The position numbers and the translations under genes are program-made. A model generated the notes under the pieces. It had not been told where the DNA came from. It was given only the letters and a program-made list of their open reading frames with translations, and did no database searches. 64,000 nucleotides of DNA from Acidobacteriaceae bacterium. Lineage in GTDB: Bacteria; Acidobacteriota; Terriglobia; Terriglobales; Acidobacteriaceae. How positions within the stretch are numbered: position 1 is the first letter of the stretch; every line of letters starts with the position of its first letter. Below, in pieces: positions 4,553 to 36,907 of the stretch. Location: contig PLSM01000094.1 of assembly GCA_003165075.1 (NCBI GenBank), forward strand, positions 40,130 to 104,129, in the 5' to 3' direction.

Positions 4553-6442
4553 CTACCAGAACAAAATGTTGAGGACTGCAAAGATGATCACCACTAGAAT
4601 CGCCCACATCCATTCGTTCTTGTAGAACGGAACAGGGTCTTCCTTGGGCAGGATGGTGGCGCCATAGACCAGGCCATTCAGTTCCGCAACTGGCCTGGGT
4701 TTAGTAAACAGGCTGACCACAAAGATGACGATCACTGTGGTCAGGAACGCCCACAGCGCACGATAAAGATTCTCAGCCATGGGCTTGGCGTCAGGCGAAA
4801 GCGCCACGGTAGACAGTTCGACGGGATTGAACTTGACCCATACAAAGAGGCTGACTGAAGTCACGATGCCGATCAGCAGGCCGAGGAAACCGGCAGGCGC
4901 GGTGGCCCGCTTCCAGAACATGCCCATCAGGATGGCGCCCAGCAGCGGCGCGATAAAGAAGCTGAACAGCGCCTGCACGTAGTCCATGATGCCGTGCGCA
5001 TGCATCACCAAGTAGGCGGCGCCAATAGACACTGCCACGCCAACCAGGATCGACATCCGGCCCACCATCACGTAATGGCTGTCAGAACCCTTCTTGTTGA
5101 TGAGCGGCTTGTAGATATCGTAGGTCCACACCGTGGAGAAGGCGCTCACGTTGCCCGCCATGCCACTCATAAAGCCCGCAATCAGAGCAGTTATGCCGAG
5201 GCCGAGCAGACCTGGCCCGCAGTAGCGGACCATCATCAGCGGTAGCGCCTCATTGTAGCTATGGAGCTCAGAATTCGGAGCCGCGCTCAGAACTTTCTGC
5301 TGCGCCTCCGCCGAGAGCGAGGTCTTGGTGGAAAGCGCCGTCGAACAGCCGGCAGGATCCTGGATCTTATCTTCTGTCGTACTCGCCGCACAGGACTTCA
5401 CCACATCCTCACCGACCAGTTGGCGGTGGCTTCCATCAGGATTCTGCAACAGCACAAGGCCCAGCAGACCTGGAAGAATAACGATGAATGGAACCGCCAT
5501 CTTGAAGAAGGAACCGATGATGGGAGCCATTCGCGCGGCGCGCAGGTTATGCGCCGCCAGCACGCGCTGCACCACTAGGAAGTCGGTAGTCCAGTAACCG
5601 AAACTGATTACGAAACCCAGGCCGAAAACGATCCCCGTCCAGTGGACGCCCATGGGGTTGGCGGAAAAATGGCCGGTATCGCGCCACAGGTGGAAATAGC
5701 TATCGGAGTGCAGATTGGTAAGGATCCTGGCTTTCAGGCCGTTCCACCCACCTGCCTGTACCAGGCCGAGGATGGGAACAAGGAGCGCGCCACCCCAGAT
5801 GAGCACAAACTGCAGCACCTCATTGAAGATGGCTGAACGTAATCCGCCCAGGCCGACATAAAGCGCCACTGCGACCGACGAGACCAGAATGCTGAATGTG
5901 ATGTCCCATCCGAGCACGACCTTCATCACTACGGCCATGGCGAACATGTTCACCCCACTCATCAGGACCATCTCGGTCGCGAAGGAGATGGCGGCCAGGC
6001 TACGGCTTGCCCCCCCGAAGCGCAGGTCGAGATAGCCGGGAACGGAGTGCGTCTTGGACACGTAGTAGAAGGGCATCATCACCAGGCCGAGGAAGATCAT
6101 GGCGGGAATGGCGCCAATCCAATACCAGTGCGTGGCCAGGATGCCGTATTGGTATGCCGAACCGGCCCAGCCCATCAATTCCAATGAACCGAGATTGGCC
6201 GAGACAAAACTTAAACCCGCAATCCAGGCGGTCATTTCGCGGCCAGCCATGAAGAACTCTTCGCTGGTGTTGGATCTGCCCTTCAGGTAGAAGCCGATCC
6301 AGAGCACCATCACGAAGTAGATGGCGATTACCGCAATATCGAGCGGCCTGAGGCGTGCGAGCGGGGCAGCGCTGAGAGCCAGCAAAGCCGGCAATTGAGA
6401 AAATGAACCGGCGGTGGCGGAGACTGGGACCAATCCGAGCAT
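4553..6442 (-). CDS. Sodium:solute symporter (SSS) family, probably for a sugar/polyol
   Basis: FFMAGR, SANLGSLE, YWTTDFLVVQRVLAA motifs; many TM helices. Confidence 0.9.
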   Translation of the reverse strand: MLGLVPVSATAGSFSQLPALLALSAAPLARLRPLDIAVIAIYFVMVLWIGFYLKGRSNTSEEFFMAGREMTAWIAGLSFVSANLGSLELMGWAGSAYQYGILATHWYWIGAIPAMIFLGLVMMPFYYVSKTHSVPGYLDLRFGGASRSLAAISFATEMVLMSGVNMFAMAVVMKVVLGWDITFSILVSSVAVALYVGLGGLRSAIFNEVLQFVLIWGGALLVPILGLVQAGGWNGLKARILTNLHSDSYFHLWRDTGHFSANPMGVHWTGIVFGLGFVISFGYWTTDFLVVQRVLAAHNLRAARMAPIIGSFFKMAVPFIVILPGLLGLVLLQNPDGSHRQLVGEDVVKSCAASTTEDKIQDPAGCSTALSTKTSLSAEAQQKVLSAAPNSELHSYNEALPLMMVRYCGPGLLGLGITALIAGFMSGMAGNVSAFSTVWTYDIYKPLINKKGSDSHYVMVGRMSILVGVAVSIGAAYLVMHAHGIMDYVQALFSFFIAPLLGAILMGMFWKRATAPAGFLGLLIGIVTSVSLFVWVKFNPVELSTVALSPDAKPMAENLYRALWAFLTTVIVIFVVSLFTKPRPVAELNGLVYGATILPKEDPVPFYKNEWMWAILVVIIFAVLNILFW

Positions 6443-28980: not shown

Positions 28981-29658
28981 TCAGTCCATCGACAGACTAA
29001 GCTGGTGGCGCACATCCGCGCCGCGAATCCAGAAGATGACGTCCGTGGCGATGTTCGAAGCGTGATCTGCAATGCGCTCCAGGCTGCGTGACACCATCAG
29101 CCCGTTCATCGCCTGATGCGTGAACTGCGGCTTGTCCTGGATGAGTTTCAGCAGATCGGTGTGCGCGCGTCGGTTCATGCGGTCGATCTCGTCGTCCATC
29201 TCGCGGACCGTGTCGGCCAGCCGTGCATCGCCTTCCAGCAGCGATTGAATGGCGGTTCGAATCATTCGTCCCGAATACTCGCCCATCGCCGCAAAGTCCA
29301 CCGGCAGTTCAACCTCATCGGCATTGGTTTTGAGAATGTCCCGGGTGCGGCGCGAGATGCCCATCGACTGGTCGCCGATACGTTCCAGGTCGCCGTTGAT
29401 CTTGATCACTGCCAGAATGAAGCGCAGATCGATGGCCATCGGCTGCTCCTTGGCCAGCAGCTCATAGGCCATCTCGTCCAGTTCCCGCTGCGCACTGTTG
29501 ATGGCCGTCTCATTCTGCTTGACGTACTGGCACAGGCCCAGGTCACGCTGCAGATAGGCGTCTACCGCGGTCTCGACCGCCTGCTGCGCAAGAGCAGCCA
29601 TGGCAAGGAGCTTGTCCTTGAGTTCGGCGAGTTGCAATTGAAAATGGATACGCGGCAC
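28981..29658 (-). CDS. phoU: Phosphate signalling complex protein PhoU
   Basis: QPMAIDLR, LERIGD and LERIADHASNIA repeats. Confidence 0.92.
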   Translation of the reverse strand: MPRIHFQLQLAELKDKLLAMAALAQQAVETAVDAYLQRDLGLCQYVKQNETAINSAQRELDEMAYELLAKEQPMAIDLRFILAVIKINGDLERIGDQSMGISRRTRDILKTNADEVELPVDFAAMGEYSGRMIRTAIQSLLEGDARLADTVREMDDEIDRMNRRAHTDLLKLIQDKPQFTHQAMNGLMVSRSLERIADHASNIATDVIFWIRGADVRHQLSLSMD

Positions 29659-29749
29659 GACGGTTTTTCCCCTAACCTTGATTGTGCATCAAGCTATGTT
29701 ACCAGCAGACGAATTTCCCGGCGCGTATCAGAATTGTTACGGCGGCTCC

Positions 29750-30203
29750 CATGGTCACCCTAAGCGCTTTCACTCCTGCCCAGAAACCAACAAGCGGAAT
29801 GCGGTACTTCGTCCGGCGATGCTTTCCCATCGAATGCGGAAAACCGTCACCCACTTGCATTGAATTATGTGCCCGCGGCGCATAATGGGATTTGGGTGGA
29901 GTATCGATCGGTCGATAGCAAGAGCGGTAAGTATCGCCAGTCGACCCCACGCGTCCTGAAGCTGCGCACGGCGGACACAGAAGGGTGCTTGTCTTTCTGG
30001 ATTTGGGAGGCAAACAATCGACCCCGCCTCAAAAATGCGACCTAACTCCTTTACTGTCTATATTCTGCGGATAACCCTTCCAGAATCAATATTTTGCCGC
30101 CGGAACCCTACCTTAAACGCATGAAAATAAGTAATTTACCCGCAGAATAGGGGGAGGGGGAGGGTGGGGTTACTCATCGGTTAACCGGCGACTGTCATCC
30201 TGC
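29750..30203 (+). repeat. ~450-nt non-coding repeat, copy A
   Basis: Collinear with the reverse complement of 33542-34005; identical blocks include taccttaaacgcatgaaaata and gggtggggttactcatcggttaa. Confidence 0.85.
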
Positions 30204-30321
30204 CATGCTCTCAGCTCCCCCCCGGTGCCGGCCCCCTCTTCCCGCGCCGGCGTTGCCTTCGAGTTTTTTAGACGAACTCTTAGACGAGCCAATTGCCGGG
30301 TTCTTGTTCTAGGCTGAGGAC

Positions 30322-30975
30322 ATGGGTACTGCACTCTCTTCTACAAGTCCTATGCTTACCTTTGACCCGTCGCATTGCGAACAGCGCCAGGTCTACAAGC
30401 TGATGACCGGCATCATTGTGCCGCGGCCGATTGCCCTGGTTTCCACCGTGGATACGCGCGGAATCGCAAATCTCGCCCCTTTCAGCTTCTTCTCCGGCGT
30501 CGGCTCCGTTCCCCCCACAGTGCTGTTTTGCCCTGCTTTGCGCCCCGAGGGTTCTGCGGAACCCGGCGAGCGAAAAGACACCCTGCGCAATGTGGAAGAG
30601 ACAGGTGAGTTTGTGGTCAATGTAGTCAGCGAGGCCATTGCCGCGGCGACCAATGCCACCGCCGCCGAGGTTGGGCCGGATGTCGACGAGTTCCGGCTGG
30701 CCGGACTCACCCCCGTGGCCAGCGAGGTGGTTCGGCCGCCACGTGTGGCTGAGTCGCCTGCGCAAATGGAGTGCCGCCTGCTCCAGGTGATCTACACCAG
30801 TCACGCACCGGGCGGCGGAGTCATTGTGCTGGGCCAGGTGGTGCGCTTTCATGTGCGCGCGGAGTTAGTGGATAATTTCCGCGTCGACCCCGACGGCCTC
30901 GCCGGGGTAGGCCGCATGGCCGGCAACACCTGGGTGCGCACCCGCGACCGCATCGAGTTGATCCGGCCGAAATAA
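30322..30975 (+). CDS. Flavin reductase-like family protein
   Basis: IVPRPIALVST, NLAPFSFF, KDTLRNVEETGEFVVN motifs. Confidence 0.88.
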   Translation: MGTALSSTSPMLTFDPSHCEQRQVYKLMTGIIVPRPIALVSTVDTRGIANLAPFSFFSGVGSVPPTVLFCPALRPEGSAEPGERKDTLRNVEETGEFVVNVVSEAIAAATNATAAEVGPDVDEFRLAGLTPVASEVVRPPRVAESPAQMECRLLQVIYTSHAPGGGVIVLGQVVRFHVRAELVDNFRVDPDGLAGVGRMAGNTWVRTRDRIELIRPK

Positions 30976-31079
30976 TTGAATTCGCCGCAACCGGTGTGCG
31001 CCGCTCGACCGCCAAATGGCGCTATATTGGTGCGGTTGGAGCCTTGGCGCCACAATGGAGTGTGGCTGAAGGGAGGCTC

Positions 31080-31691
31080 ATGCACCTCGCGCAGCAGCGC
31101 AGTTGTCAGGGAATCTGCCAGGGTCTTCATCTACCGAAGCCGGTGCACGGTGTGGCGGCGCTGGTGATACTGGCTGTTTCAGCGTCGGGCGGCTGTCACC
31201 GCGCAGCCTCAACAGTAATCGCCAAAGGGGAAGTATCTATGGAGTTAACCAGTTCCAGCTTTCAAAACAGCAGAATTCCGAGACAGTTCACCTGCGACGG
31301 TGCTGATGCGTCACCTCATCTGGCGTGGACAGCACCCCCGCCAGCCACAAAGAGTCTGGCCCTGCTTGTTACCGACCCCGATGCGCCGGCAGGCACCTGG
31401 GTCCATTGGGTGCTCTACGACCTTCCTCCAACCGCGCGCGAACTGTCCATCGGTGTTCAAAAAGCTCAGTTTCTCGGCGACGGCTCACGTCAAGGCCGCA
31501 ACGACTTTGGCAAAATCGGCTACGGCGGACCGTGCCCGCCCCCCGGCACCAATCACCGCTACTTCTTCCGCCTCTACGCGCTCGATACGCAACTCAATCT
31601 CTCGCCCGGAGCGACTCAGGACCAACTCGAAACGGCAATGCATGGACACATTCTGGCGCAGGGCGAACTGGTGGCACGCTATGGCCGGTGA
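31080..31691 (+). CDS. YbhB/YbcL (PEBP/RKIP-like) protein, possibly a lipoprotein
   Basis: DPDAP, HW and GPCPP...HRY motifs; GGAGG RBS before 31080; SASGGC possible lipobox (alternative start 31239). Confidence 0.85.
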   Translation: MHLAQQRSCQGICQGLHLPKPVHGVAALVILAVSASGGCHRAASTVIAKGEVSMELTSSSFQNSRIPRQFTCDGADASPHLAWTAPPPATKSLALLVTDPDAPAGTWVHWVLYDLPPTARELSIGVQKAQFLGDGSRQGRNDFGKIGYGGPCPPPGTNHRYFFRLYALDTQLNLSPGATQDQLETAMHGHILAQGELVARYGR

Positions 31692-31739
31692 TCTTCCTCG
31701 ATTCGGGTCAGTCGAAGGTGATGTCGCAAGGATCGGTTC

Positions 31740-32096
31740 ATGGTAACGTCAGGGACGGACGATTTCATGCAGGATCTCAGAGAACTCGCTTCACTCCGGG
31801 AGTCGTGGCAACACGAGGCAGGATTCTGGCGTGACACCCCGTTCATTTGGAAGAGGTGGGATAGCTATCGCGAGGATTGGACCCACGATCACTGCATGTT
31901 CTGCTTTGCATGCATTTGTAACCATCGGGACCGCTTCCCGGAGTGGAAGCAGGCCCACGAGGAGCGTGGATGTTATCGCCACGCCTACTACGCCGAACGC
32001 GAGAAGGGCGTTTACATATGGGTCTGTCGAACCTGTTTCAAACGAGTCCAAGCTGAATTCGGTTGGAGAACTGCGGACCAGATCTCGGATAGTTAG
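31740..32096 (+). CDS. Small Cys/His-rich hypothetical protein (putative Zn-binding)
   Basis: WTHDHCMFC and WVCRTCF motifs. Confidence 0.65.
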   Translation: MVTSGTDDFMQDLRELASLRESWQHEAGFWRDTPFIWKRWDSYREDWTHDHCMFCFACICNHRDRFPEWKQAHEERGCYRHAYYAEREKGVYIWVCRTCFKRVQAEFGWRTADQISDS

Positions 32097-32133
32097 TTCG
32101 GATTGGCAGTTGCTTGATTCAACGACATAGCCA

Positions 32134-33363
32134 TTATGTCGCGCTCATCTCCTGCCCCTTGGCTTCGCGCCCCAGCAGCGCCAACCCCGCCAGCAACAAC
32201 GCCACAATCACCACCGTGACGGCCAAGACGGCGGGATAACTGCCCCAGCGCTCCGCGGCCAGTGCCTGCCCTTTGCCGTTCCAGGAAGTGATCAGGCCGC
32301 CCAGTTGGTAAGCGAGCCCCGGCGCTGTGGCTCGCACCGGAGCCGGGGAAAGTTCAGTGAGATAGGCCGGCACCACCCCCCACGCTCCCTGCACCATGAA
32401 CTGCATAAGCACCGCACCCATGCCCAGGGTCACGGCCGAGTGCCCATACGCGTAAAGCGGAATCACCGGAATGGCGAGCAGCGCGGCGGTGACAATAGCC
32501 CTCTTCCGGCCCCATTTCTCCGACAGCGCCCCAAAGACAAAGCCGCCGGCAATGGACCCCAGGCCGTAGAGCACTCCAATCAAACCCACCGTCTGCGCTG
32601 AGAGCCCCACCTGCACCGTCAGAAAGGTCGGGTACACATCCTGGGTGCCGTGCGAAAAGCTCATGAAAGCCGTCATCAGCAGTACCAGAAAAAGAAACGT
32701 GGGCAGAAATGCCAGCAGATTGGCTGGAATTGCAGGAGCAGCGCCACGGGCCAGACGCTTCTTCTCCCCCGCGAGCCACACCGGTGACTCTTTCACGCGG
32801 ACCTGCACGTAGAACACCAGCAGGGCTGGAGATGCGCCGAGAATAAAAAGTCCGCGCCAGCCGATAGCGTGAAAGAAGAGGGCAAAGGCGGCCGATGCCA
32901 GGATGGAGCCCAGTGCGTAGCCTTCCTGCAAAATACCGGAGAAAGCGCCACGGCCTTCCGTAGGCAGAGTCTCAAAGGCCAGCGCCGCACCCACGCCCCA
33001 CTCTCCGCCCATGGCAATGCCAAACAGCGCGCGCAACACCATCAGCACGGTGAGCGAGGGAGCAAAGGCGCATGCCAATTCAATGACGGAAAAGCTGAGG
33101 ATGTTGATCATCAACACGGGGCGCCGCCCGTAGCGATCGGCCAGCATGCCGAATACCAGCGCGCCCACCGGCCGGAAGGCCTGGGTGAGGAAGACAGCGC
33201 CCAGCACGTCGGAAGGCTTGGCGCCAAAGTCCGTCGCGATTGCCTTGACGCAGAAGATCAGCAGGAAGAAGTCGAGGCTGTCCAGCGTCCAGCCCAGAAA
33301 GGAGGCCACAAAGGTGTGGCGCTGGGCGCGGCTCAGCCGTTTGAAGTCGCGGACGATAGACAT
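32134..33363 (-). CDS. MFS carboxylate transporter (Jen/YjhB-like)
   Basis: FLGWTLDSLDFF, MGGEWG, SHGTQD motifs. Confidence 0.88.
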   Translation of the reverse strand: MSIVRDFKRLSRAQRHTFVASFLGWTLDSLDFFLLIFCVKAIATDFGAKPSDVLGAVFLTQAFRPVGALVFGMLADRYGRRPVLMINILSFSVIELACAFAPSLTVLMVLRALFGIAMGGEWGVGAALAFETLPTEGRGAFSGILQEGYALGSILASAAFALFFHAIGWRGLFILGASPALLVFYVQVRVKESPVWLAGEKKRLARGAAPAIPANLLAFLPTFLFLVLLMTAFMSFSHGTQDVYPTFLTVQVGLSAQTVGLIGVLYGLGSIAGGFVFGALSEKWGRKRAIVTAALLAIPVIPLYAYGHSAVTLGMGAVLMQFMVQGAWGVVPAYLTELSPAPVRATAPGLAYQLGGLITSWNGKGQALAAERWGSYPAVLAVTVVIVALLLAGLALLGREAKGQEMSAT

Positions 33364-33541
33364 CTCCGGGAGAATAGCAGACGTTCCCTTGCTCCGGCGC
33401 ACCGCGCGAAATCTCGTGCCACGCTCATTCCGCGGGGGGCGCGGGAGCCTGCTCCAGGCCTTCATACTCGAACTTGCGCAGATTCCTCATGCATTCGGCC
33501 AGCGCGGGGACAAAGGCACAACATCGGGGGAGCGGCGAGTA

Positions 33542-34005
33542 GCAGGGGGACAGTCACCGTTTAACCGATGAGTAACCCCACCCCCTCCCCCCCTATTCTG
33601 TAGATAAATTATCTATTTTCATGCGTTTAAGGTATGGGTTGCGCTGTAAAATATTGATTCCGCAGGGGTTCCCCGCAGAATATAGACGTTAAAGGAGTTA
33701 GGCCGCTATTTCGGCGCGCCGGGGTAGTCCCATCCCAAATTCACGAAGACAAGTACCCTTCCGCGCCTGCCTGCGTGCAGCCTCCCGACGTGTGGTTCGA
33801 CTGGCGACACTCCCCGTCCCAGCAATCGACCTATCGATACTCAACTCAAATTCAATTATGCGCCGGTCACACATAATTCAATGCAAAAGGGCAGTCGTTC
33901 TCAGCATTCGATGGGAGAGCATTGCTGGACGAAGTGGCGTACCCGGCCTTGATGGTTTTTGGACAGCTTCTGAGAGAGTTGGCGAACCAGCCACGAGTGA
34001 CCATG
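33542..34005 (-). repeat. ~450-nt non-coding repeat, copy B (inverted relative to A)
   Basis: Manual alignment with 29750-30203. Confidence 0.85.
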
Positions 34006-34322
34006 AGACCAACATACCGGTCTGAACGCTTCTCTGAGCGAACTGGGCGGTTATCACCAATTGAGAACTACTCGTGTTCGATTCTCGAATGGCGACTTCA
34101 GGCCGAGTCGCTCATTGAAAGCCAGCAAACTCAGAGATGGCCCGGATCGGTACTATGACACGCCCAGCATCTCTGCACCCCTGAATGAGCGTTCATTGGG
34201 GATTCCTGGGACAGTGCCGACTGCACGGACCTTGTGAAGCCTCGATGAGTGCTTTGGCGATTTACCACTCGTTGAGAACCAAATTGCGGATGTTTAGATT
34301 TTCCGCTTTCGTTGTCGCCTCT

Positions 34323-34931
34323 TTACTTTTTCTCTCTGCGTGCCGGTTTCGGGCGAACCAATGGCAGGAAGATGTCGTCGACGAACCCCGCAATGACGGC
34401 GTTGGGAACGGGCTTTAAGGTCATCAGGACCTCGTGCCGCAACAAATCAGGAAGCAGCGAGGCAATCCGGGGCGTCAGCTTGCTTCGATCGATCTCACCA
34501 CGATCTACTCCTCGTGCAAGCACGACAGCGAGCTGGCTGTGATCGCCCTGGAGCACACTCGTCCTGAGATCGGCCAGGCTGGTGTTCGTCTCAGAGAAAT
34601 ATTCACTCATTTGTAAAGAAAAGAAGGCTGCGAACAGGGCGCGACCTTTTGAGAATTGTTGCAGCAAAGCAACCAGATCGCCGCGCACATTTCCTGTGTC
34701 GGGGATAACCAGAGGATGTTTATGCCTGATGTGGCGTATCGCTGCGATGGCGAGATCGGCTCGATTCGGCCAGCGGCGATAGAGCACTGGCCGGCTTGTG
34801 TGCGCGCGCGCCGCCACAGCCTCCATTGTGAAGCTCGCGTAACCGCCGCCGAGCAACTCGCTCCACGCCGCATCGAGCACCGCATCTTCAAGCGCCTTGC
34901 CGCGCCGCCGTTCGACTGTATGATCCTTCAT
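34323..34931 (-). CDS. TetR family regulator
   Basis: N-terminal HTH (FTMEAVAARAHTSRPVLYRRW). Confidence 0.88.
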   Translation of the reverse strand: MKDHTVERRRGKALEDAVLDAAWSELLGGGYASFTMEAVAARAHTSRPVLYRRWPNRADLAIAAIRHIRHKHPLVIPDTGNVRGDLVALLQQFSKGRALFAAFFSLQMSEYFSETNTSLADLRTSVLQGDHSQLAVVLARGVDRGEIDRSKLTPRIASLLPDLLRHEVLMTLKPVPNAVIAGFVDDIFLPLVRPKPARREKK

Positions 34932-34945
34932 CCCACTCCGCCATT

Positions 34946-35010
34946 AGATACTTAATTGTATCCTATTGACATTGGCCGACGTCTCTGATTAGATACAGTC
35001 ATGCATCTAA
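34946..35010. promoter_or_regulatory. Two AGATAC-N6-G[TC]ATC[CT] operators in the divergent tetR/methyltransferase promoter
   Basis: agatac-ttaatt-gtatcc (34946-34963) and agatac-agtcat-gcatct (34991-35008). Confidence 0.65.
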
Positions 35011-35067
35011 CCTGCAATCGGAGCTTGAATTGCTGGGCCGGGTGTATCCGTAGAGGAGAAAAAGCCA

Positions 35068-35910
35068 ATGCAACAGATTCAATCTGACGACCTCAAGGGC
35101 GTCTCTAAAACACTGCTCATCCCGCTGCATTGCTGCGTCGAGGAAAGCAAAAGCGAGTCTAGCAGCTTCAAGGATGAAATTGCCGAGAGATTCCACGATG
35201 CCATCGCTTACGATTGGGGCAAGTTCGACGCTGACTCATCGCAGAACTGGGTGACGGCCGTGACGACAGCCGCCATGAACAAAAGAAGAGTCATCTTCGA
35301 CGAACAGGTAAAGAACTTTCTTGAAGAGGCGCCGGATGGACTGGTAGTGAACCTGGGCGCCGGACTAAATACGCGCTTCCATCGCCTTGATAACGGCCGG
35401 CTCGAATGGATTGAACTGGACCTACCCGGCGTGATTACCTTTCGGCAGAAGCTCCGCGAGCCGGAAAGCAAGCGGCACCGGATGATTGCAGCGTCCGTTC
35501 TTGATGACGACTGGGTTGGGGAGATCAAACGGTACGCGAGAAGTCGAGTCCTGTTTGTCGCGGAGGGACTATTGCCGTACTTTACGGAAGAAGAACACAG
35601 AAAGATATTCACCTGCCTCGCCGAGAATTTCCCCGGACAGGAGATGCTGTTTCACACGATAGCTCCGTCACTAACTCCGGAACTCGCCCAACACTCGCTT
35701 ATATCCAGGACGAAAATGAAGGCAGAGATGCAATGGGGACTGGACGACAGCAAGCAAGTATCGGCTCTGAATCCGAAGGTGGAATTTGTGGACGAGTTTT
35801 CGCTGCTGGAGGGAAGCTATGACCTGTTACCCGAACCGATCCGGCAGAAATTGTCTCCTGCTATGGCAAAGCAGGTTATGAAGATCGTCCATGTGCGGTT
35901 CCGTGAATAA
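35068..35910 (+). CDS. Class I SAM-dependent methyltransferase (LCM/TcmP-like)
   Basis: VVNLGAGLNTR, ELDLP, AEGLLPY motifs. Confidence 0.85.
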   Translation: MQQIQSDDLKGVSKTLLIPLHCCVEESKSESSSFKDEIAERFHDAIAYDWGKFDADSSQNWVTAVTTAAMNKRRVIFDEQVKNFLEEAPDGLVVNLGAGLNTRFHRLDNGRLEWIELDLPGVITFRQKLREPESKRHRMIAASVLDDDWVGEIKRYARSRVLFVAEGLLPYFTEEEHRKIFTCLAENFPGQEMLFHTIAPSLTPELAQHSLISRTKMKAEMQWGLDDSKQVSALNPKVEFVDEFSLLEGSYDLLPEPIRQKLSPAMAKQVMKIVHVRFRE

Positions 35911-36164
35911 GCTCATTGATTCCGAGTGGCCGATAATCCAGAGGTTTGCGATCCCGGAGGATGTGAACAGGCCAACGCACTCATTGGCTTAGGCGACAGG
36001 TCCGCAAGTCAGGGTGAGTAATGGCAAACACCGATGTAGCAGAAATCTCGGTTGACGCCCAATCGCCATCTCACCCGTTGACTCAAAGATGAGCGAACCC
36101 TCTCGGTTCGCGCTTGAATTGACCGCCTCCAGGCAGCCGGCTTGATCCGGTTTTTGAGAAAATT

Positions 36165-36180
36165 ATTTGTTGCAACGATT
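36165..36180. promoter_or_regulatory. Palindrome upstream of yceI/marR, candidate MarR operator
   Basis: atttGTTGCAACgatt. Confidence 0.35.
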
Positions 36181-36331
36181 AACATTCTTGCAGCGTCCAA
36201 TTAAAAGGTATTCGTAACTCTTCCGCGGTACGGCAGGCTTCCCCGTTCCCCGTCCCCGTCCGGCTAGAGACGCTTGGTCTCTGCCGGCAACTTCCAACGG
36301 CCCGTGGCCCGAAATCGAAAGGACTTGATCA

Positions 36332-36907
36332 ATGAAGAGATTGGCATTTGCATTAGGCATTCTGGCGCTGGCGGTTCCCCTGGCCGTGGCGCAAACCTCC
36401 ACCTGGGTTCCAGACAAGGCGCATAGCGAGGTCGACTTCAGCATCCTCCACATGAGCCTCTCCAAAGTCCATGGCCGCTTTGGCAACATCGGAGGCTCCA
36501 TTGTTCTGAATGAAGCGGACATCACCAAGTCAACCGTCAATGTCACCATCGATGTAACCACGGTGGACACCGGCGTAGGCCCCAGAGATACGGACCTGAA
36601 GAGTGCGAACTTTTTTGACGTGTCCAACTTCCCCACCGCCACATTTACCAGCACCAGCGTGGCCAGAGACGGCAGCAACTTGGCCGTAACAGGCAACCTG
36701 ACCCTGCACGGAGTGACCAAACCCGTGGTGCTGCAGGTAGAAGGCCCCACCGGCCCGGTTCCGGGGATGGACCACAAGCCACATTCCGGCTTCGCAGCCA
36801 CTACTACGATCAGCCGCACAGCCTTCGGCATTGCAACAAAATTCCCGGCCAGCGTGTTGGGTGACGACGTCAAGCTCACCATCGACCTCGACGTGGTCAA
36901 GCAGTAA
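36332..36907 (+). CDS. YceI family protein
   Basis: Signal peptide; HSEVDF, RDTDLKS.NFFD, GNLTLHGVTK motifs. Confidence 0.9.
   Translation: MKRLAFALGILALAVPLAVAQTSTWVPDKAHSEVDFSILHMSLSKVHGRFGNIGGSIVLNEADITKSTVNVTIDVTTVDTGVGPRDTDLKSANFFDVSNFPTATFTSTSVARDGSNLAVTGNLTLHGVTKPVVLQVEGPTGPVPGMDHKPHSGFAATTTISRTAFGIATKFPASVLGDDVKLTIDLDVVKQ

What the first reader, a model, noticed from the sequence alone, without database searches (positions are those of the whole stretch)
29750..34005. Two diverged ~450-nt non-coding repeats in inverted orientation flanking 3.3 kb of cargo genes
Seen in sequence: 29750-30203 aligns collinearly with the reverse complement of 33542-34005. Identity is roughly three-quarters by eye, with 21- and 23-nt identical blocks near the inner ends. 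Hairpins are kept while loops vary: attatgtg..cgcataat, atcga-(tcgg/tagg)-tcgat, tattctg..cagaata and taactcc..ggggtta. Each copy lies 5' of, and co-oriented with, a gene (flavin reductase; MFS). No transposase is present. Inference: a large structured ncRNA or leader, a portable promoter module, or a non-autonomous mobile element able to mobilise or invert the cargo.
Basis: partly seen in the sequence, partly recalled or inferred. Interest (0 to 1): 0.7.

Follow-up and report, generated by a model that had tools for sequence, protein, structure and literature searches.

The report
Two copies of a bacterial MITE
The two inverted repeats are two old copies of a roughly 505-bp non-coding jumping element (a MITE) present about 40 times in this Acidobacteriota genome, and the genes between them are ordinary resident genes rather than cargo.

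Summary
The inverted repeat is real: window 29772-30279 (+) against 33970-33498 (-), about 78% identical. It is not a private pair. nhmmer finds 64 related stretches in this 5.7-Mb genome. About 40 are near full length (about 505 nt, mean pairwise identity 75%), and all of them are intergenic.

Copies have sharp ends. The terminal inverted repeats read GA(A/G)CCTGTCCA(G)AAAC. A 3-bp TNA target duplication matches left and right in 10 of 14 copies with both ends (permutation p = 0.0008). The element is non-coding, has no Rfam match and shows no covariation. It shows no bias towards lying upstream of a co-oriented gene.

Seven same-genus genomes keep PhoU-flavin reductase-PEBP-MFS synteny with a 95-190-nt PhoU/flavin-reductase spacer, against 663 nt here. 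That gives an empty site and shows the "cargo" is ancestral. Four independent metagenome assemblies of the same population carry copy A in the same gene order and orientation.

No transposase with these ends is in the assembly. IS5-family elements with GAGCCTGT... ends occur in the same bacterial family, and unrelated 172-189-bp MITEs with the identical terminal repeat and a TAA duplication occur in metagenomes.

Verdict: a new family of a well-known kind of element. Interest is low to moderate.

The parts
29772..30279 (+). MITE copy A, full length (508 nt), family 'F1'
   Evidence: nhmmer model positions 1-500, E = 4e-147. Ends were read against 17 other full-length copies. It lies in the divergent PhoU/flavin-reductase spacer, which is 663 nt here and 95-190 nt in seven relatives.
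29772..29788 (+). Left terminal inverted repeat of copy A, degenerate (ACTCCTGCCCAGAAACC against consensus GAACCTGTCCAGAAACC)
   Evidence: The left target duplication at 29769-29771 is no longer recognisable.
30264..30279 (+). Right terminal inverted repeat of copy A (TTTTTTAGACGAACTC against consensus TTCTTGGACAGGCTC)
30280..30282 (+). Right copy of the 3-bp target duplication (TTA) of copy A
   Evidence: The family-wide TNA duplication is shown.
30041..30177 (+). Conserved internal module of copy A (about 140 nt, A+T-rich blocks followed by a G-run), shared with a second repeat family and with repeats in two congeners
30062..30096 (+). Hairpin ATTCTG..CAGAAT followed by CAATATTTTG, in a weakened form in copy A (-5.8 kcal/mol)
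   Evidence: The hairpin is kept in about 34 of 40 copies. Mean stability is -8.5 kcal/mol on the sense strand and -5.9 kcal/mol on the antisense strand.
33445..33970 (-). MITE copy B. The HMM supports 33498-33966 (model 2-472). 33445-33497 is a degenerate right end carrying a 13-nt insertion and is tentative.
33954..33970 (-). Left terminal inverted repeat of copy B (GAAGCTGTCCAAAAACC)
33971..33973 (-). Left target-duplication triplet of copy B (TCA on the element strand)
33568..33703 (-). Conserved internal module of copy B
33647..33681 (-). The same hairpin in copy B, the strongest of the family (11 pairs, -16.0 kcal/mol), followed by CAATATTTTA and flagged as terminator-like
30322..33363 (.). 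Context, not part of the element: flavin reductase (30322-30975 +), PEBP family (30996-31691 +), unknown 118-aa ORF (31740-32096 +) and MFS transporter (32134-33363 -). These are resident genes, not cargo.
   Evidence: Pfam assignments. Synteny without the element in same-genus genomes.

Best explanation
[quoted passage not shown] These are roughly 505-bp non-coding, non-autonomous cut-and-paste DNA transposons.

A DDE transposase supplied in trans recognises the 16-17-bp terminal inverted repeats, GA(A/G)CCTGTCCA(G)AAAC. It inserts the element at C|TNA|G-like sites and duplicates the central TNA. The transposase is most likely of the IS5 family, of the IS427/IS1031 kind.

The family amplified to about 40 copies within this species lineage and has since decayed to about 75% pairwise identity.

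Copies A and B inserted independently into two intergenic regions of a conserved gene block. Copy A went into the divergent PhoU/flavin-reductase spacer, and copy B went upstream of the MFS gene. Their inverted arrangement is incidental.

Shown here: repeat family, ends, target duplication, non-coding nature, empty site for copy A, ancestral 'cargo'.
Inferred: the identity of the transposase, and cut-and-paste as the mechanism.
For: - Copy number. There are 43 BLAST and 64 nhmmer hits in the genome. About 40 are near full length and 18 span the whole model. Mean pairwise identity is 74.8%.
- Ends. All full copies start ...TNA|GAACCTGTCCAGAAACC and end ...TTCTTGGACAGGCTC|TNA.
- Target duplication. 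The flanking triplets match left and right in 10 of 14 copies, including the rarer TCA/TCA and ATA/ATA. Random pairing gives 4.1 on average, p = 0.0008.
- Location. All copies are intergenic by my own crude gene calls. Eleven abut the stop codon of a flanking gene, which fits a TNA target.
- Non-coding. There is no Pfam hit and no 3-base periodicity. Of the indels, 171 are not multiples of three and 19 are. The open frames differ between copies.
- Empty site. Seven same-genus genomes have PhoU and flavin reductase 95-190 nt apart, against 663 nt here, with conserved flanks on both sides of the insertion.
- Same ends on other elements. Metagenome contigs carry 172- and 189-bp elements with the same terminal repeat and a TAA/TAA duplication but an unrelated interior (L049, L064).
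- Related autonomous elements. A 0.9-kb two-ORF IS5-family element in the same bacterial family has ends GAGCCTGTTTACGATC (L171). It matches NCBIfam transpos_IS5_3, DUF4096 and DDE_Tnp_1/1_2. Another has GAGCCTGTTTAAAAAC (L173).
- Literature. A three-nucleotide insertion site is described as a common feature of the IS1031 group (PMC2516522).
Against: - No autonomous element with these terminal repeats was found in this 194-contig assembly, in 80 metagenome loci, or among 28 IS5-type loci from the bacterial family. The transposase is therefore inferred.
- The terminal repeats are no better conserved (86-87% to consensus) than some internal blocks (88%). A purely selfish element would not obviously give that pattern.
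- Copy A has lost a recognisable left duplication and copy B has a degenerate right end. For these two copies, membership rests on homology to the family and, for copy A, on the empty sites in relatives.
- Copy A is present in all four independent population assemblies examined. No current mobility is shown.
Confidence: 0.87

Rival explanations
1. Exapted regulatory cassette. The element is a MITE, but its conserved roughly 140-nt internal module works for the host. The module carries a sense-strand hairpin followed by CAAUAUUUUG and a G-run. It might act as a transcription terminator or insulator, an outward promoter, or a protein-binding site. Copies A and B would then now control flavin reductase and MFS.
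For: - The module is shared by a second, otherwise unrelated repeat family and gives weak hits in two congeners.
- The hairpin is kept in about 34 of 40 copies. It is more stable on the sense strand (-8.5 against -5.9 kcal/mol) because of G-U pairs, and there are some compensatory changes at its apex.
- The hairpin is flagged terminator-like in copy B.
- Copy A separates flavin reductase from all but about 40 nt of its ancestral upstream DNA. Only about 20 nt upstream of the MFS start codon is ancestral. New signals must therefore come from the insertions or from read-through.
Against: - No sigma-70-like promoter is found in either copy.
- Only copy B meets the terminator criteria.
- The hairpin is not kept in the second family, although the sequence blocks are.
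- There is no orientation bias relative to neighbouring genes.
- Block-to-block differences in conservation are small, 80-88%.
Confidence: 0.12
2. A dispersed family of large structured non-coding RNA genes or 5' leaders, as in the reader's first alternative.
For: - Several hairpins are present in most copies, and 94% of cells pair in the consensus fold.
- Both window copies lie upstream of, and co-oriented with, genes.
Against: - There is no Rfam match, even at E up to 10.
- The RNAalifold covariation term is -0.06 kcal/mol.
- Only 5 of 753 cells show double-sided change. Registers slid by one or two columns give as many or more.
- The top mutual-information pairs are not Watson-Crick pairs.
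- Only 15 of 40 copies have a co-oriented downstream gene.
- Terminal inverted repeats and target duplications are not features of RNA genes.
Confidence: 0.03
3. A composite transposon or invertible segment. The two inverted copies act together to move or flip the 3.2 kb between them.
For: - The outer ends of an inverted pair both present a left terminal repeat.
- Four such convergent pairs, 3.6-5.9 kb apart, exist in the genome. Five pairs of any orientation lie within 6 kb, against about 1.7 expected by my own Poisson estimate from the positions (p about 0.03).
Against: - The enclosed genes are in the ancestral order and orientation in same-genus genomes without the element.
- The arrangement is unchanged in four independent assemblies.
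- The interiors of the four pairs are unrelated.
- The outer flanking triplets do not form a direct repeat (TTC or TCA on the left, TGA on the right, on the + strand).
- The full-length members of two other pairs carry their own matching duplications, TCA/TCA and TTA/TTA.
- Copy B's inner end is degenerate.
Confidence: 0.03

Closest known systems
Prokaryotic MITEs in general (for example Correia elements of Neisseria, Chunjie of Geobacter uraniireducens, RUP of pneumococcus, QMITEs of Coxiella; reviewed in PMC10969869)
   Same: Non-coding and a few hundred bp long. Terminal inverted repeats, short target duplications and tens of intergenic copies. Full-length, internally deleted and truncated copies occur together. 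No transposase of its own.
   Different: At about 505 bp it is at the large end of the range. The copies are old (about 75% identical). It is amplified in a single species. No parent insertion sequence is visible in the genome. Its interior is modular and shares a 140-nt block with a second repeat family.
IS5-family insertion sequences, IS427/IS1031 groups (0.8-1 kb, often two ORFs joined by a frameshift)
   Same: The ends begin GAG. The target duplication is very short and TA-centred. Three nucleotides is given as typical of the IS1031 group (PMC2516522). The first 8 nt of the terminal repeat, GAGCCTGT, are identical to those of a 0.9-kb IS5-family element from the same bacterial family (L171).
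   Different: The element has no transposase gene. Beyond the first 8-10 nt its ends differ from every autonomous element examined. The one IS5-type element in this genome has ends GAGCGTGTTTCAAAAAT and appears to duplicate TA only.
Tourist-like MITEs and PIF/Harbinger transposons of eukaryotes (my own knowledge; not tested here)
   Same: A 3-bp TTA/TAA target duplication, and a DDE transposase related to that of IS5.
   Different: These are eukaryotic elements, and no sequence relationship was tested.

Membership tests
MITE (miniature inverted-repeat transposable element) | Short (tens to several hundred bp) with no coding capacity | tested here: met
   Length 450-511 nt. No Pfam hit. No codon periodicity. 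Indels are 171 non-multiples of three against 19 multiples.
MITE (miniature inverted-repeat transposable element) | Terminal inverted repeats | tested here: met
   GA(A/G)CCTGTCCA(G)AAAC at both ends of the full-length copies.
MITE (miniature inverted-repeat transposable element) | Target-site duplication flanking the copies | tested here: met
   The 3-bp TNA triplet is identical left and right in 10 of 14 copies, against 4.1 expected, p = 0.0008. It is degenerate in the two window copies.
MITE (miniature inverted-repeat transposable element) | Multiple dispersed copies | tested here: met
   64 nhmmer hits, of which about 40 are near full length.
MITE (miniature inverted-repeat transposable element) | Evidence of insertion (empty sites) | tested here: met
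   The PhoU/flavin-reductase spacer lacks the element in seven same-genus genomes. The exact insertion point could not be resolved to the base.
MITE (miniature inverted-repeat transposable element) | An autonomous partner with matching terminal repeats | tested here: not met
   None was found in the own assembly, in 80 metagenome loci, or in 28 IS5-type loci. Only related ends beginning GAGCCTGT were found. A partner is not strictly required to call an element a MITE.
Derivative of an IS5-family (IS427/IS1031-group) element | Ends begin GAG, with a 2-4-bp TA-centred duplication | tested here: met
   The group features come from PMC2516522 and from my own recollection of ISfinder tables.
Derivative of an IS5-family (IS427/IS1031-group) element | Mobilised by an IS5-family DDE transposase | not testable with these tools
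   This needs a transposition or binding assay.
Any Rfam RNA family (including HEARO/omega-RNA-like and Acidobacteria motifs) | A covariance-model match | tested here: not met
   There were no matches at gathering thresholds in the 64-kb window. In 29600-34200 at E up to 10 there was only one chance-level hit, and it lies inside the flavin-reductase gene.
Composite transposon | The enclosed DNA moves with the flanking copies, and a shared duplication lies outside the pair | tested here: not met
   The enclosed genes are ancestral and syntenic. The outer triplets are not a direct repeat.

The most novel reading that the evidence does not exclude
The roughly 140-nt A+T-rich module is carried by two otherwise unrelated repeat families and is detectable in two congeners. 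It contains a sense-strand hairpin with a U-tract and a G-run. On this reading the module is a host-useful regulatory cassette, acting as a terminator or insulator, or as a landing pad for a DNA- or RNA-binding protein. MITEs spread it around the genome, and copies A and B have rewired expression of the flavin-reductase operon and of the MFS transporter. The MFS transporter now sits downstream of a newly acquired TetR gene.
Probability: 0.1. Interest if true: 0.5.

Novelty: new member of a known kind. Interest (0 to 1): 0.22.

Why it matters
The main value is for annotation. About 60 intergenic stretches of this Acidobacteriota genome, roughly 25 kb in all, can be labelled as MITE copies or fragments and need not be chased as novel RNAs or regulatory regions. 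Inverted pairs of them should not be read as cargo-carrying transposons.

The family also gives a defined terminal repeat, GARCCTGTCCAGAAAC, with a TNA duplication. The same terminal repeat occurs on unrelated short MITEs in soil and peat metagenomes. This points to a widespread IS5-type transposase that has not yet been paired with its elements.

Copies that abut stop codons or split divergent promoter regions are natural cases for studying how such insertions are tolerated.

Tried and rejected
- Rfam, at gathering thresholds and at permissive E-values: nothing.
- RNAalifold on all 40 copies returned an empty structure because of truncated rows. Subsets gave unstable, strand-ambiguous folds.
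- APC-corrected mutual information over all column pairs: the top pairs reflect subfamilies, not helices.
- My first helix counts used registers off by one. They were redone.
- A search for an autonomous parent found nothing. I tried fuzzy terminal-repeat searches of the whole genome and of contig ends, Pfam DDE searches of the own genome, one metagenome scan and IS5-type loci from 120 genomes of the bacterial family. Only related elements turned up.
- The idea that the shared module is the 3' end of a multicopy gene, or an omega-RNA-like scaffold: rejected, because there is no ORF upstream.
- The idea that the four convergent pairs share cargo: rejected.
- A possible second terminal repeat bounding the 2.8-kb TetR/methyltransferase insertion near 35985-36010: not convincing.
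- A long minus-strand open frame seen in many copies: rejected as coding.
Full report
**Observation.** The window holds a genuine inverted repeat. The repeat finder reports three collinear inverted blocks of 143, 142 and 52 nt at 79-87% complementarity. MAFFT aligns 29700-30330 with the reverse complement of 33360-34060 at 79% mean column identity. Neither arm encodes anything recognisable, and Rfam has no match. Homology also continues about 75 nt further inward than stated.

**It is a family, not a pair.** The window is C148:40130-104129 of a 5.68-Mb, 194-contig genome. A hit in a public record labels a related genome as an Acidobacteriota MAG.
- BLAST with copy A finds 43 places in the genome.
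- Iterated nhmmer finds 64 places. About 40 are near full length, against a 501-position model. About 24 are fragments, mostly covering model positions 245-400.
- Mean pairwise identity of the long copies is 74.8%, with a range of 54-85%.

**Anatomy.** Lining up the 18 copies that span the model shows sharp ends. The flank ends ...TNA, and the element begins GAACCTGTCCAGAAACC. The element ends ...TTCTTGGACAGGCTC and is followed by TNA. The two ends are inverted repeats of each other, GA(A/G)CCTGTCCA(G)AAAC.

The flanking triplets are TTA, TAA, TCA or ATA. They match left and right in 10 of 14 copies where both ends can be found. Random re-pairing gives 4.1 on average (p = 0.0008). The four mismatches are single-base differences. 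The bases just outside suggest a C|TNA|G target.

By my own rough gene calls, all long copies are intergenic. Eleven abut the stop codon of a neighbouring gene, which fits a TNA target that can regenerate a stop.

The element is non-coding:
- There is no 3-base periodicity of substitutions.
- Of the indels, 171 are not multiples of three and 19 are.
- The long open frames seen in many copies lie in different frames and give unrelated peptides.

**Insertion, and the 'cargo'.** The flavin reductase has 70-80%-identical orthologues in same-genus genomes. In seven of them I read the neighbourhood.
- PhoU and flavin reductase are divergent neighbours there too, but 95-190 nt apart against 663 nt here.
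- The alignment shows conserved sequence on both sides of a roughly 540-nt insertion that is exactly the element.
- PEBP and MFS follow in the same order and orientation in four of these genomes.

The genes between the two repeats are therefore ancestral residents, not cargo, and the segment has not been inverted. Four independent metagenome assemblies that encode the identical flavin reductase show the same 663-nt spacer and the same gene order. Copy A is thus fixed in the population, and no inverted form is seen.

Upstream of MFS the ancestral spacer to the next conserved gene is about 230 nt in relatives and 2968 nt here. The extra 2.8 kb (about 33384-36158) contains copy B, a TetR gene and a methyltransferase gene. 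I found no convincing second element end bounding that block.

**Pairs.** Three other convergent (+ then -) pairs lie 3.6-5.9 kb apart in the genome.
- Their interiors are unrelated.
- In two of them the full-length member has its own matching duplication, TCA/TCA and TTA/TTA. Those copies arrived singly.
- Five pairs within 6 kb against about 1.7 expected is a mild excess (my own Poisson estimate, p about 0.03). Preferred insertion regions or local hopping would explain it.

**RNA structure.** I tested this in three ways.
- APC-corrected mutual information gives no Watson-Crick helices among the top pairs. The strongest couplings mark subfamilies.
- RNAalifold on 20 copies gives a covariation term of -0.06 kcal/mol. 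The pair counter finds 5 double-sided changes in 753 cells, no more than in registers slid by one or two columns.

One hairpin deserves mention: AUUCUGCGG..CUGCGGAAU followed by CAAUAUUUUG, at consensus positions 288-321.
- It is kept in about 34 of 40 copies.
- It is more stable on the element's sense strand (-8.5 against -5.9 kcal/mol) because of G-U pairs.
- It shows a few compensatory changes at its apex.
- The simple scanner calls it terminator-like in copy B only, and finds no sigma-70-like promoter in either copy.

Only 15 of 40 copies have a co-oriented gene downstream. 'Leader' or 'promoter module' is therefore not a family property. Conservation differs only modestly along the element, from 80 to 88% identity to the consensus. 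The terminal repeats are at 86-87%.

**Modularity.** The roughly 140-nt block at consensus 266-400 (window 30041-30177 and 33568-33703) also occurs in a second repeat family. That family has about 380 nt and about 12 copies. Its 5' half is different, and some of its copies carry the same right tail and right terminal repeat. Nothing coding lies upstream of this block. The block gives weak hits in two of 24 same-genus genomes, whereas the full element is found in none of them. One truncated full-type copy is in another Acidobacteriota MAG.

**Which transposase?** No element with these ends and a transposase gene is in the assembly. The genome has one intact-looking IS5-family element at C51:74311-75154. 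Its ends are GAGCGTGTTTCAAAAAT and its flanks read c-TA|...|TA-a.

Among IS5-type loci from 120 genomes of the same bacterial family, two are close:
- A 0.9-kb two-ORF element (L171:411-1311) has ends GAGCCTGTTTACGATC. It matches NCBIfam transpos_IS5_3, DUF4096 and DDE_Tnp_1/1_2.
- Another element has ends GAGCCTGTTTAAAAAC.

Both share the first 8 nt with this MITE.

A metagenome scan with the 17-nt terminal repeat returned three kinds of hit:
- many chance hits;
- five copies of this same family;
- unrelated 172- and 189-bp elements with perfect copies of the same terminal repeat and TAA/TAA duplications (L049, L064), plus a further related pair (L052, L061).

The end sequence and the TNA duplication therefore define a transposition system wider than this family. 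A three-nucleotide insertion site is described as typical of the IS1031 group of IS5 (PMC2516522). MITE definitions follow PMC10969869.

**Verdict.** This is a decayed MITE family amplified in one species, and two of its copies happen to bracket four resident genes in inverted orientation. 'Cargo', 'inversion' and 'structured RNA' are not supported. What remains open is the identity of the transposase, and whether the conserved module or its hairpin has been put to use by the host.

The earlier notes of this scan on this genome concern other loci and did not bear on this finding.

Noticed in passing
window 33384-36158: Relative to same-genus genomes, about 2.8 kb is inserted between the MFS start and the next conserved gene (36332-36907). 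The insertion holds MITE copy B, a TetR-family regulator (34323-34931, -) and an LCM-type methyltransferase (35068-35910, +). Only about 20 nt upstream of the MFS ATG is ancestral. TetR now lies upstream of, and co-oriented with, the MFS transporter.
   Followed up: partly
window 31740-32096: A 118-aa Cys/His-rich ORF with no Pfam match fills a 442-nt PEBP-MFS spacer. That spacer is only about 22 nt in a relative (L040). The ORF is called as a gene in four independent population assemblies.
   Followed up: partly
window 36159-36198: The palindromic motif AAAATTATTTGTTGCAACGA(T/A)T upstream of gene 36332-36907 is conserved at the equivalent place in relatives (L040, L041). It is a candidate operator.
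   Followed up: no
window 29677-29717: The motif TGATTGTGCATCA.GC.ATGTTAC just upstream of the PhoU start is conserved in seven same-genus genomes. It is a likely PhoU promoter or operator, and MITE copy A left it intact.
   Followed up: no
G000:C158:21565-21940, C93:40382-40801, C39:21013-21497, C148:151599-152065 and others: A second non-coding repeat family of about 380 nt and about 12 copies. It shares the 140-nt module with the MITE, and in some copies also the right tail and right terminal repeat. Its 5' half is different, and it has no matching left terminal repeat.
   Followed up: partly
flanks of several copies, e.g. G000:C129 about 5300-5420 and C159 about 167250-167330, also inside L040-type spacers: A short REP-like hairpin recurs in intergenic DNA next to the larger repeats: GGGTGCCCCAGGTCCC(n)TTTTGGGACCTGGGA.
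   Followed up: no
G000:C51:74311-75154: An 845-bp IS5-family element with perfect 17-bp ends GAGCGTGTTTCAAAAAT. It contains two N's. A same-family genome (G062) carries 17 copies of a near-identical type flanked by c-TA...TA-g.
   Followed up: partly
L049:4526-4697 and L064 (minus strand, 189 bp): Short MITEs in metagenome contigs carry exactly the same terminal repeat and TAA duplications. Their interior is unrelated and is built of GGCCAGTTTTGA-type subrepeats and a GC hairpin.
   Followed up: partly
G000:C68 downstream of 140648, and C167 about 33860-33930: Tandem heptamer arrays (CCACTGA/CCCCTGA) lie directly next to truncated repeat copies.
   Followed up: no
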